From the human T2T-CHM13v2.0 reference genome, Homo sapiens, in assembly GCF_009914755.1 (NCBI RefSeq), contig NC_060933.1: a DNA stretch of 64,000 nucleotides; one strand, 5' to 3'. Positions 16,894 to 17,739 of this stretch are shown here, one piece after another. The position numbers and the translations under genes are program-made. The notes beneath the pieces were generated by a model. The model did no database searches, was not told the DNA's origin, and saw only the letters and a program-made list of their open reading frames with translations. Numbering within the stretch: position 1 is the stretch's first letter; each line of letters opens with the position of its first letter.

Positions 16894-17739
16894 GCTTTCC
16901 TGTCCCGGCCTGCGTGGCGTGGGCTTGTGGGTCTTTGAGACCCGAAAATTGAGAGCATTTTCGCACCCCAGGGGCTGCTCCTGGCGGCTCTGCGGCCGTC
17001 ACCATGCCACAGAACGAATATATTGAATTACACCGTAAACGCTATGGATACCGTTTGGATTACCATGAGAAAAAGAGAAAGAAGGAAAGTCGAGAGGCTC
17101 ATGAACGTTCAAAGAAGGCAAAGAAAATGATTGGTCTGAAGGCTAAGCTTTAACATAAACAGCGCCATGCTGAGAAAATATAAATGAAAAAAAGACTATC
17201 AAAGATGCATGAAAAGAAAAACACCAAACAAAAGAATGATGAAAAGACTCCACAGGGAGCAGTACCTGCCTATCTGCTGGACAGAGAGGGACAATCTCGA
17301 GCTAAAGTACTTTCCAATATGATTAAACAGAAACGAAAAGAGAAGGCGGGAAAATGGGAAGTCCCTCTGCCTAAAGTACGTGCCCAGGGAGAAGCAGAAG
17401 TATTAAAAGTTATTCGAACAGGAAAGAAGGCATGGAAGAGGATAGTTACTAACGTGTGCTTTGTTGGAGATGGCTTTACAAGAAAACCACCTAAATATGA
17501 AAGATTCATCAGGCCAATGAGACGGGGTTTCACCGTGTTAGCCAGGATGGTCTCGATCTCTCTGATCCGCCCGCCTTAGCCTCCCAAAGTGCTGGAATTA
17601 CAGGCATGAGCCACCGCGCCCGGCCAACGTGAGTAATTTTTAATAGATTAAAATATTGGCAAATAGCCTGTTTCTGTAAATAAAGTTTTAATGGAACACA
17701 AAATAAATAAATAAATAAATAAATAAATAAATAAATAAA
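16894..17739 (+). pseudogene. NSA2 (TINP1) processed pseudogene, antisense in ZNF367 intron 1, with Alu-derived 3' end
   Basis: Intronless; pyrimidine-rich 5' end CTTTCCTGTCCC; ATG 17004 [24 protein letters not shown]...; stops at 17151 and 17181; compensating +2/+1 A insertions near 17190-17203; RKK deleted; homology ends at RPM (17519); AATAAA 17679-17684; (AAAT)n tail 17701-17739. Confidence 0.93.

What the first reader, a model, noticed from the sequence alone, without database searches (positions are those of the whole stretch)
16894..17739. NSA2 retrocopy preserves an alternative mRNA: Alu-exonised terminal exon with premature polyadenylation
Seen: NSA2 homology runs from the pyrimidine-rich 5' end to codon 174 (...RPM, 17519), then switches at a codon boundary into an antisense Alu left arm starting AGACGGGGTTTC (17520-17625). 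There is no poly-T, right arm or TSD, so this is not a later Alu insertion. A consensus donor AAC|GTGAGT (17629-17634) follows, then AATAAA (17679-17684), CA at 17699-17700 and an (AAAT)n tail. Knowledge: TTTAGTAG|AGACGGGG is a commonly used acceptor in antisense-Alu exonisation, and the AATAAA context (TGTAAATAAAGTTTTA.TGGAACACA) resembles MER58. Inference: the template was a spliced NSA2 isoform using an intronic Alu exon and an intronic poly(A) site, abundant enough in the germline to be retrotransposed. It would encode NSA2 with a truncated C-terminus and an Alu-derived tail ([14 protein letters not shown]...). The GTGAGT suggests the same exon can also act as a cassette or poison exon, a possible regulatory switch for a ribosome-biogenesis factor.
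Basis: partly seen in the sequence, partly recalled or inferred. Interest (0 to 1): 0.8.

Follow-up and report, generated by a model that had tools for sequence, protein, structure and literature searches.

The report
NSA2 pseudogene fossilises an Alu-ended transcript
This dead copy of the ribosome-assembly gene NSA2 was made from an unusual NSA2 messenger RNA that ended early in an Alu-derived exon, a tidy but ordinary example of pseudogenes preserving old splice variants.

Summary
Window 16895-17519 matches exons 1-4 of NSA2 on chr5, spliced at GT-AG introns. Exon 4 ends at codon 174 (CCAATG|gtaagt). Window 17520-17700 matches 182 nt of NSA2 intron 4 at 96.7% identity. That stretch starts directly after an AG (tttttttgtAG|AGACGGGG) inside a full-length antisense Alu. 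It ends at a CA 16 nt after AATAAA, where the parent continues with non-A sequence. So NSA2P7 is a retrocopy of an mRNA made of exons 1-4 plus an Alu terminal exon with intronic polyadenylation.

It is the only such copy among the seven long NSA2 retrocopies, and the youngest (2.25% from the parent). It is dead, with two stop codons. The AATAAA lies in an older dispersed repeat.

One correction: the parent today reads GTTGAGT, not GTGAGT. The Alu's other target-site duplicate suggests the extra T arose in the parent later. Germline abundance, present-day expression and a regulatory or poison-exon role are not shown.

This is a new member of a known kind, of modest interest.

The parts
16751..16894 (+). 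Insertion target: Alu-monomer-like element ending in TATTATTAAATAAATAAATA(G). The G at 16894 is absent from the parent (t there) and may be untemplated or flank.
   Evidence: (76% repeat of the 3' end of the neighbouring Alu). A target-site duplication cannot be separated from the (AAAT)n tail.
16895..17006 (+). NSA2 exon 1-derived (5' UTR from the CTTTCC start to the ATG)
   Evidence: chr5 75248139-75248250, 97.3%. Three other retrocopies have their 5' end at this same C, where the parental match begins; the chr1 copy reads on 11 nt upstream.
17007..17196 (+). NSA2 exon 2-derived. Holds stop codons TAA 17151-17153 and TAA 17181-17183 and a 2-nt insertion at 17187-17188.
17197..17348 (+). NSA2 exon 3-derived, with a 1-nt insertion at 17201
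17349..17519 (+). NSA2 exon 4-derived, with a 9-nt in-frame deletion after 17423. Ends at codon 174 (..CCAATG).
17520..17625 (+). Antisense Alu left-arm part of the alternative terminal exon. In-frame TAG at 17577-17579.
   Evidence: The chr5 intron-4 Alu is the best non-self match (96%, same 106-nt length); most other Alus span 113 nt.
17626..17641 (+). Copy of the parental Alu's downstream target-site duplication (AACGTGAGTAATTTTT). Contains GTGAGT at 17629-17634.
17642..17700 (+). Rest of the terminal exon from parental intron 4. Its last ~40 nt are from an old dispersed repeat that supplies AATAAA (17679-17684). The cleavage site is CA at 17699-17700.
17701..17739 (+). (AAAT)n tail: former poly(A) tail and/or duplicated target
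   Evidence: The parent continues gtcatgcc after the CA.

Best explanation
NSA2P7 is an L1-type processed pseudogene copied from an alternative NSA2 mRNA.

How the exon arose in the chr5 parent: a full-length Alu sits antisense in intron 4, next to a fragment of an older dispersed repeat. The U-rich linker of the antisense Alu, followed by AG, acted as a 3' splice site, so exon 4 was joined to the Alu left arm. The transcript ran through the Alu's target-site duplicate without splicing there. It was cleaved at a CA 16 nt after an AATAAA supplied by the older repeat.

What the mRNA encoded: about 0.8 kb, NSA2 residues 1-174 plus a 19-residue Alu-encoded tail. It lacked the exon 5-6 part that carries the S8e-like domain. 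Because its stop lies in the last exon, it would not be an NMD target (inference).

What happened next: one such mRNA was reverse-transcribed into an A-rich Alu tail in ZNF367 intron 1. This happened roughly 10-20 million years ago (an inference from 1.1% lineage divergence and a recalled neutral rate). The copy has since decayed.

Shown: the splice structure, the parental origin, the poly(A) site, and the decay. Inferred: the L1 machinery, the date, and that the source RNA was a recurrent isoform rather than a one-off.
For: - **Parent exon map.** Exons 1-4 lie at chr5 75248139-75248250, 75249818-75250005, 75250101-75250251 and 75251518-75251697. Each is followed by gt. Exons 3 and 4 are each directly preceded by ag; for exon 2 the blast-derived start was refined by one base.
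- **Terminal exon.** It lies at 75253199-75253380, preceded by tttttttgtag and followed by gtcatgcc, so there is no genomic A-run.
- **Identity to the parent.** The retrocopy against the spliced parent shows 14 substitutions in 622 aligned nt for exons 1-4. The terminal exon shows 5 in 181. The two figures are similar, as one event predicts.
- **Specific source Alu.** The Alu piece matches this Alu at 96% and shares its length. Other Alus of the locus match at 79-85% over the full piece. The best other genomic Alus reach 88-94%, with 40 scored of 1368 candidates.
- **Other retrocopies.** The six other long retrocopies all run exon 4 to exon 5 to exon 6.
- **Polarity of changes.** 7 of 14 differences are retrocopy-derived: 2 nonsense, 4 nonsynonymous and 1 ambiguous UTR change. 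The other 7 are parent-derived: 5 synonymous and 2 UTR.
- **The repeat outruns the poly(A) site.** The repeat holding AATAAA continues about 130 nt past the cleavage site in the parent.
- **Domain lost.** Exon 5 carries Pfam Ribosomal_S8e profile positions 53-115 of 133, E 5e-22.
- **Parental tail.** It reads [19 protein letters not shown].
Against: - No RNA data could be consulted, so the isoform is attested only by this one retrocopy (1 of 7).
- No Alu-tailed NSA2 protein appeared among the best 120 of 1793 hits in the large protein search. Clustering at 90% identity could hide one.
- A target-site duplication for the retrocopy cannot be delimited.
- The date rests on 9 substitutions and a recalled rate.
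Confidence: 0.93

Rival explanations
1. The source RNA was a rare by-product of splicing and polyadenylation noise in a highly expressed gene, caught once by L1. The structural reading stands, but there was never a regulated or functional isoform.
For: Only 1 of 7 long retrocopies has the structure. NSA2 is prolific in retrocopies, so even minor RNAs had chances. The Alu-encoded tail is arbitrary sequence. No paper links NSA2 to an Alu exon or to its own intronic polyadenylation.
Against: The signals are good: a long U-tract plus AG, and a canonical AATAAA with a CA at 16 nt. Isoforms that also truncate NSA2 after residue 174 by skipping exon 5 are annotated in several vertebrates.
Confidence: 0.55
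2. The Alu exon is, or was, a hybrid internal/terminal exon that works as a regulatory switch. Spliced at GTGAGT it is a 109-nt poison cassette with an in-frame TAG. Unspliced it ends the mRNA early. Either route tunes NSA2 output.
For: - The retrocopy has GTGAGT at the Alu boundary. Its U1 pairing energy (-7.4 kcal/mol) falls within the range of NSA2's five constitutive donors (-6.8 to -11.1).
- The Alu's upstream target-site duplicate has the same length as the retrocopy's version. This suggests the parent carried GTGAGT when the copy was made.
- In-frame TAG.
- Hybrid internal-terminal exons are a described class (listing and abstract).
Against: The parent now reads GTTGAGT, at -4.3 kcal/mol and out of register. 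The only transcript on record did not use the donor. No cassette junction evidence could be sought. No conservation data.
Confidence: 0.12
3. Chimeric retrocopy by reverse-transcriptase template switching. L1 RT began on a separate polyadenylated RNA from NSA2 intron 4 and jumped to NSA2 mRNA.
For: Template-switch chimeras are a known class (recalled, not looked up). A 5' gene part joined to a different 3' part is their usual form.
Against: Both sides of the junction fall exactly on splice sites of one gene: the exon 4 donor and an AG acceptor 1.5 kb downstream in the same intron, in the same orientation. A random jump would hit both by chance with negligible probability.
Confidence: 0.02
4. 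Later rearrangement in chr9: a 3'-truncated ordinary NSA2 retrocopy next to an unrelated Alu fragment or pre-existing DNA.
For: The surroundings are a pile-up of retroelements: an Alu at 16437-16750, an Alu monomer, and an L1 3' end at 17740-17935.
Against: 17520-17700 matches chr5 NSA2 intron 4 over both the Alu and the unique parts. It shares that Alu's private length.
Confidence: 0.01

Closest known systems
Processed pseudogenes as 'genomic fossils' of transcript isoforms (Shemesh et al. 2006, seen only in reference lists; Carelli et al. 2016, PMC4772013, passage read)
   Same: An intronless L1-type copy records a splice and poly(A) variant of its parent that differs from the main mRNA.
   Different: Here the variant combines an Alu-derived acceptor with a poly(A) signal from a second repeat. 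The copy also keeps a donor motif that the parent no longer has. This specific case was not found in print.
Left-arm exonisation of antisense intronic Alus (Schwartz et al. 2009, PMC2639721, sections read; Gal-Mark et al. 2008, PMC2330237, abstract)
   Same: Antisense Alu in an intron, with the 3' splice site directly after the internal U-tract and the exon body in the left arm. That paper counts 77 left-arm against 313 right-arm cases.
   Different: Those sets are internal cassette exons with a 5' splice site. This transcript did not splice out of the Alu and ended 75 nt beyond it.
Alu exons creating new terminal exons and poly(A) sites (Tajnik et al. 2015, PMC4666398, abstract)
   Same: An Alu 3' splice site coupled to a nearby poly(A) site gives an alternative transcript end.
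   Different: Tajnik et al. describe intergenic Alus downstream of genes that change 3' UTRs. Here the Alu is intronic and truncates the coding region at residue 174 of 260.
Hybrid internal-terminal exons (preprint 10.1101/2021.05.27.446076, listing and abstract)
   Same: One exon carries both a 5' splice site and a downstream poly(A) site.
   Different: Dual use is not shown here, and the donor is broken in the present parent.

Membership tests
Processed pseudogene (L1-mediated retrocopy) | Colinear with spliced mRNA, introns removed at the parent's GT-AG borders | tested here: met
   four junctions fall on parental exon borders.
Processed pseudogene (L1-mediated retrocopy) | Ends at a poly(A) site followed by an A-rich tail that is absent from the parent | tested here: met
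   AATAAA 17679-17684, CA 17699-17700, then (AAAT)n. The parent continues gtcatgcc.
Processed pseudogene (L1-mediated retrocopy) | Flanking target-site duplication | tested here: inconclusive
   The 5' flank ends AAATAAATAAATA(G) and the 3' tail has the same motif, so a duplicate cannot be told from the tail.
Processed pseudogene (L1-mediated retrocopy) | Loss of coding constraint | tested here: met
   Two stops, three indels, and 4 of 4 later retrocopy-derived coding changes are nonsynonymous.
Antisense Alu exonisation, left arm | Alu lies antisense in an intron of the parent gene | tested here: met
   Full-length Alu with poly-T first, at chr5 about 75253015-75253304 in intron 4. It is flanked by a 16/17-nt duplication.
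Antisense Alu exonisation, left arm | AG acceptor behind the internal U-tract is used | tested here: met
   tttttttgtag|AGACGGGG in the parent. The retrocopy joins exon 4 to that A.
Antisense Alu exonisation, left arm | Junction present in RNA today | not testable with these tools
   No transcript data on hand. No Alu-tailed protein among the 120 best of 1793 hits.
Intronic polyadenylation terminal exon | Canonical signal 10-30 nt before the cleavage site in the parent intron | tested here: met
   The parent has AATAAA with the CA cleavage site 16 nt downstream.
Intronic polyadenylation terminal exon | 3'-end sequencing cluster at the site | not testable with these tools
   No 3'-seq resource available.
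Poison cassette exon | Usable 5' splice site at the exon's end in the parent | tested here: not met
   The T2T parent reads AAC|GTTGAG. U1 duplex energy is -4.3 kcal/mol against -6.8 to -11.1 for the five constitutive donors. Only the retrocopy has GTGAGT.
Poison cassette exon | In-frame premature stop | tested here: met
   TAG after 19 codons in the parent and in the retrocopy.
   No repeat library. A dispersed repeat is confirmed: 18 further loci match the last 33-50 nt, and 6 copies aligned.

The most novel reading that the evidence does not exclude
NSA2P7 is a dated snapshot of a hybrid internal/terminal Alu exon in a ribosome-assembly gene. On this reading, when the copy was made the parent carried a consensus donor (GTGAGT) right behind the Alu. 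The human lineage later disabled it with a 1-nt insertion. Exon-5-skipping isoforms, annotated from fish to primates, also cut NSA2 after residue 174. Together these would mean that a short NSA2 lacking the S8e-like domain is a selected, regulated product reached by more than one route.
Probability: 0.1. Interest if true: 0.6.

Novelty: new member of a known kind. Interest (0 to 1): 0.3.

Why it matters
The case shows, with exact coordinates, that the NSA2 locus can join exon 4 to an intronic Alu and end the message there. It gives a testable junction (chr5 T2T 75251697 to 75253199) and poly(A) site (75253380) for a ribosome-biogenesis factor.

It also shows how a retrocopy can polarise changes in its parent. 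Here the parent, not the copy, seems to have changed at the GTGAGT motif, at the base after AATAAA, and at five synonymous sites.

If the isoform proved to be regulated, it would give a natural NSA2 truncation to study. As it stands this is a clean textbook example rather than a surprise.

Tried and rejected
- **Shemesh et al. 2006:** could not be opened. It is cited from reference lists only.
- **Literature:** 'NSA2P7' occurs in one unrelated liver-cancer paper. 'NSA2' with 'Alu exon' gave 0 papers. 'NSA2' with 'intronic polyadenylation' gave 1 paper, where NSA2 is only a pulled-down protein. 'NSA2' with 'Alu' gave 2 irrelevant papers. 'NSA2' with 'exoni...' gave 13 papers, 10 listed; the two opened were irrelevant to the exon.
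- **Zarnack et al. 2013 supplements:** the two small files held do not name NSA2. The full exon tables may not be among them.
- **Pfam:** no hit on the retrocopy's 131-aa frame or on its first 49 residues.
- **Large protein search:** no Alu-tailed isoform found.
- **Retrocopy target-site duplication:** not delimitable.
- **Alu subfamily and the MER58 name:** not tested, for lack of a repeat library. From recall the Alu looks like a Y/S-type. The only tool figure is that its best other genomic matches are 92% or lower, with 40 scored of 4507 candidates.
- **Template switching and local rearrangement:** considered and rejected on the exact splice-site junction and the chr5 match.

Full report
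**What is in the window.**

| Feature | Window position |
|---|---|
| NSA2 cDNA sequence | 16895-17519 |
| Antisense Alu left-arm piece, starting AGACGGGGTTTC | 17520-17625 |
| AAC\|GTGAGT | 17626-17634 |
| AATAAA | 17679-17684 |
| CA | 17699-17700 |
| (AAAT)n | 17701-17739 |

The retrocopy has no poly-T, no Alu right arm and no Alu target-site duplication. Read from ATG 17004, the frame carries two stops and then runs ...[22 protein letters not shown]. The 17184-17519 frame aligns to residues 62-174 of the 260-residue human NSA2 found in solved pre-60S particles. The break is therefore at codon 174.

**The parent locus.**

The window's own assembly could be searched. The NSA2 part hits chr5 exon by exon. 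I fetched 17.9 kb of that locus. Alignment and inspection of the borders give:

| Element | chr5 (T2T) | Border |
|---|---|---|
| Exon 1 | 75248139-75248250 | ..ATG\|gtaagg |
| Exon 2 | 75249818-75250005 | \|gtaagt |
| Exon 3 | 75250101-75250251 | \|gtaagc |
| Exon 4 | 75251518-75251697 | ..CCAATG\|gtaagt |
| Exon 5 | starts 75254755 | cttactag\|GGCTTGCG |

So c.522 is an exon boundary in phase 0.

**The 3' part comes from NSA2 intron 4.**

- The unique 81 nt at 17620-17700 occur in full only at chr9 (self) and at chr5 75253299-75253380 (98%). The other 18 of the 20 matches cover only its last 33-50 nt.
- In the fetched locus, 17519-17700 aligns to chr5 75253198-75253380 at 96.7%, E 5e-85.
- That stretch lies 1.5 kb into intron 4, on the same strand.
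- It begins directly after an AG (gctaatttttttgtatttttttgtAG|AGACGGGG).
- It ends at GGAACACA, after which the parent continues gtcatgcc.

The acceptor reads TTTTGTAG rather than the expected TTTAGTAG. Neighbouring Alus in the window and in the locus carry the usual ..TAGTAG.. version (read by eye). The parental Alu therefore lacks the upstream AG and has a longer U-run.

**It is this Alu and no other.**

The parent holds a full-length antisense Alu. Poly-T comes first, then the right arm, then the left arm. It is flanked by a duplication: AACCTGAGTAATTTTT upstream and AACGTTGAGTAATTTTT downstream.

- The retrocopy's 106-nt Alu piece matches this Alu at 96% with equal length.
- Other Alus of the same locus match at 79-85% over the whole piece.
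- The best other genomic Alus reach 88-94%, and most span 113 nt for the 106-nt query. That means they lack a 7-nt deletion shared by the parent and the copy (40 scored of 1368 candidates).
- The parental Alu itself is at most 92% identical to any other scored Alu (40 of 4507). It is thus much older than the retroposition.

**One event, and when.**

Against the spliced parent, exons 1-4 differ by 14 substitutions in 622 aligned nt (2.25%) plus three indels. The terminal exon differs by 5 in 181 (2.8%) plus one indel. The two rates are similar, as a single retroposition predicts.

Six other long NSA2 retrocopies (chr12, X, 15, 1, 4, 2) all run exon 4 to exon 5 to exon 6. NSA2P7 is therefore 1 of 7 with the Alu end. 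Those six are 4.6-10.4% from the parent, so NSA2P7 is the youngest.

Using the six as outgroups:

- 7 of the 14 differences arose in NSA2P7: two nonsense changes at 17153 and 17181, four nonsynonymous changes, and one ambiguous CpG change in the UTR.
- 7 arose in the parent: five synonymous and two in the 5' UTR.

That is the expected contrast between a drifting copy and a constrained gene.

In the terminal exon, 6 of 6 aligned copies of the dispersed repeat read AATAAAG, like the retrocopy. The parent's AATAAAA is therefore the derived state.

Counting 9 retrocopy-lineage substitutions in 803 nt (1.1%), and using a recalled neutral rate near 1e-9 per site per year, gives roughly 10-20 million years. 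This is an inference with wide error.

**The poly(A) site.**

AATAAA sits 16 nt before the CA in both parent and copy. It lies inside an old dispersed repeat that continues about 130 nt beyond the cleavage site in the parent. The copy therefore ends in mid-repeat at a processing site, not at a repeat border. The name MER58 could not be checked, because no repeat library was available.

**The donor motif.**

GTGAGT (17629-17634) lies in the copy of the Alu's downstream target-site duplicate. The T2T parent reads GTTGAGT there.

The upstream duplicate (AACCTGAGTAA) has the same length as the retrocopy's version (AACGTGAGTAA). The shortest history is therefore that the parent carried GTGAGT when the copy was made and gained a T later. 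This is inference: two events against three.

A crude U1 pairing calculation gives:

| Donor | Energy (kcal/mol) |
|---|---|
| Retrocopy GTGAGT | -7.4 |
| Present parent GTTGAGT (out of register) | -4.3 |
| NSA2's five constitutive donors | -6.8 to -11.1 |

The transcript that was copied did not use this donor. A cassette or poison-exon role is thus possible for the past but unsupported for the present human sequence. It is untested in RNA.

**What the isoform would encode.**

In the parent, the Alu exon read in the exon 4 frame gives [19 protein letters not shown]. The protein would be 193 residues: NSA2 1-174 plus 19. Exon 5 alone matches Pfam Ribosomal_S8e profile positions 53-115 of 133 (E 5e-22), so the isoform lacks that domain. 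Its stop is in the last exon, so it should escape NMD (inference from the general rule).

A search of the large protein collection with the retrocopy's frame found no Alu-tailed NSA2 among the best 120 of 1793 hits. Clustering at 90% identity could hide one.

The search did find isoforms that end RPM plus about 15 residues. These are exon 5-skipped forms:

- A 189-aa cluster of 104 member sequences with a marmoset representative.
- A bat 'isoform X2'.
- A carp protein.

Human exon 6 read straight after exon 4 gives ENMPRLPTILKMMDV*. Truncation after residue 174 is thus annotated by another route. That is suggestive but proves nothing about function.

**Mechanism and rivals.**

The best explanation (0.93) is L1-type retroposition of a spliced, intronically polyadenylated NSA2 mRNA with an Alu-derived terminal exon.

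- Template switching between two RNAs (0.02) and later local rearrangement (0.01) are rejected. The junction falls exactly on the exon 4 donor and on an AG acceptor of the same intron, and both the Alu and the unique parts match chr5.
- It stays open whether the source RNA was a recurrent isoform or noise. I put noise or a functionless by-product at about 0.55, and a regulated hybrid exon at about 0.12.
- RefSeq's curated span for NSA2P7 ends exactly at 17700 (hub table). Curators evidently already count the Alu-containing part as pseudogene, which hints that a matching transcript may be on record. I could not check this.

**Comparison with what is known.**

- Retrocopies as archives of transcript isoforms are established. 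A passage in Carelli et al. 2016 cites Shemesh et al. 2006 for this. Shemesh itself could not be opened.
- Left-arm antisense Alu exonisation is a recognised minority class, with 77 left-arm against 313 right-arm cases in Schwartz et al. 2009. Most exonisations are right-arm (abstract of PMC2330237).
- Alu exons that create terminal exons and poly(A) sites were described for intergenic Alus (abstract of Tajnik et al. 2015).
- Hybrid internal-terminal exons are a described class (abstract).
- The NSA2 case was not found in print by the searches.

**Verdict.**

- The core interpretation is supported.
- The regulatory extension is not shown, and the parent's present donor sequence argues against it.
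- This is a new member of a known kind. Interest is 0.3.

Noticed in passing
Proteins P0001, P0016, P0008; L022:593-640: Exon-5-skipped NSA2 isoforms are annotated in marmoset (a cluster of 104 member sequences), a bat and carp. They keep residues 1-174 and add a tail of about 15 residues from frameshifted exon 6. The human sequence would give ENMPRLPTILKMMDV*. This is the same truncation point as the Alu isoform.
   Followed up: partly
L013 (chr1 202918941-202922573), positions 357-2144: The chr1 NSA2 retrocopy is another isoform fossil. It starts 11 nt upstream of the usual CTTTCC start. It also extends about 770 nt further into the 3' UTR than the others, to chr5 75258464 rather than about 75257697.
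   Followed up: partly
window 16894; L010 (chr12 copy) 5' junction: NSA2P7 and the chr12 copy each have a G directly before the CTTTCC start, where the parent has t. The chr15 and chr2 copies do not. The G may be an untemplated cap-derived base or simply flank.
   Followed up: no
L015 (chr2 170553867-170557368), about 1216-1499: The chr2 NSA2 retrocopy is interrupted inside exon 4 by an Alu insertion. It is the most diverged copy, at 10.4%.
   Followed up: no
window 16437-16750, 16751-16894, 17740-17935: Retroelements are piled up around the pseudogene: a full Alu with an A30 tail, an Alu-monomer-like element whose (AAAT) tail is the insertion site, and a 5'-truncated L1 3' end directly after the pseudogene's tail (by eye).
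   Followed up: no
chr9 39187645-39187854, 43544826-43545192, 78965110-78965475: Three further weak NSA2-like matches on chr9 (64-72% identity), presumably much older retrocopy remnants or duplicated copies of one.
   Followed up: no
PMC4558023 (passages): NSA2 mRNA shows different allelic ratios in cytosol (1.2) and on polysomes (2.5) in lymphoblastoid cells. The authors list it among genes where variants may act directly or via RNA isoforms. This could be worth relating to the intron-4 exon.
   Followed up: no
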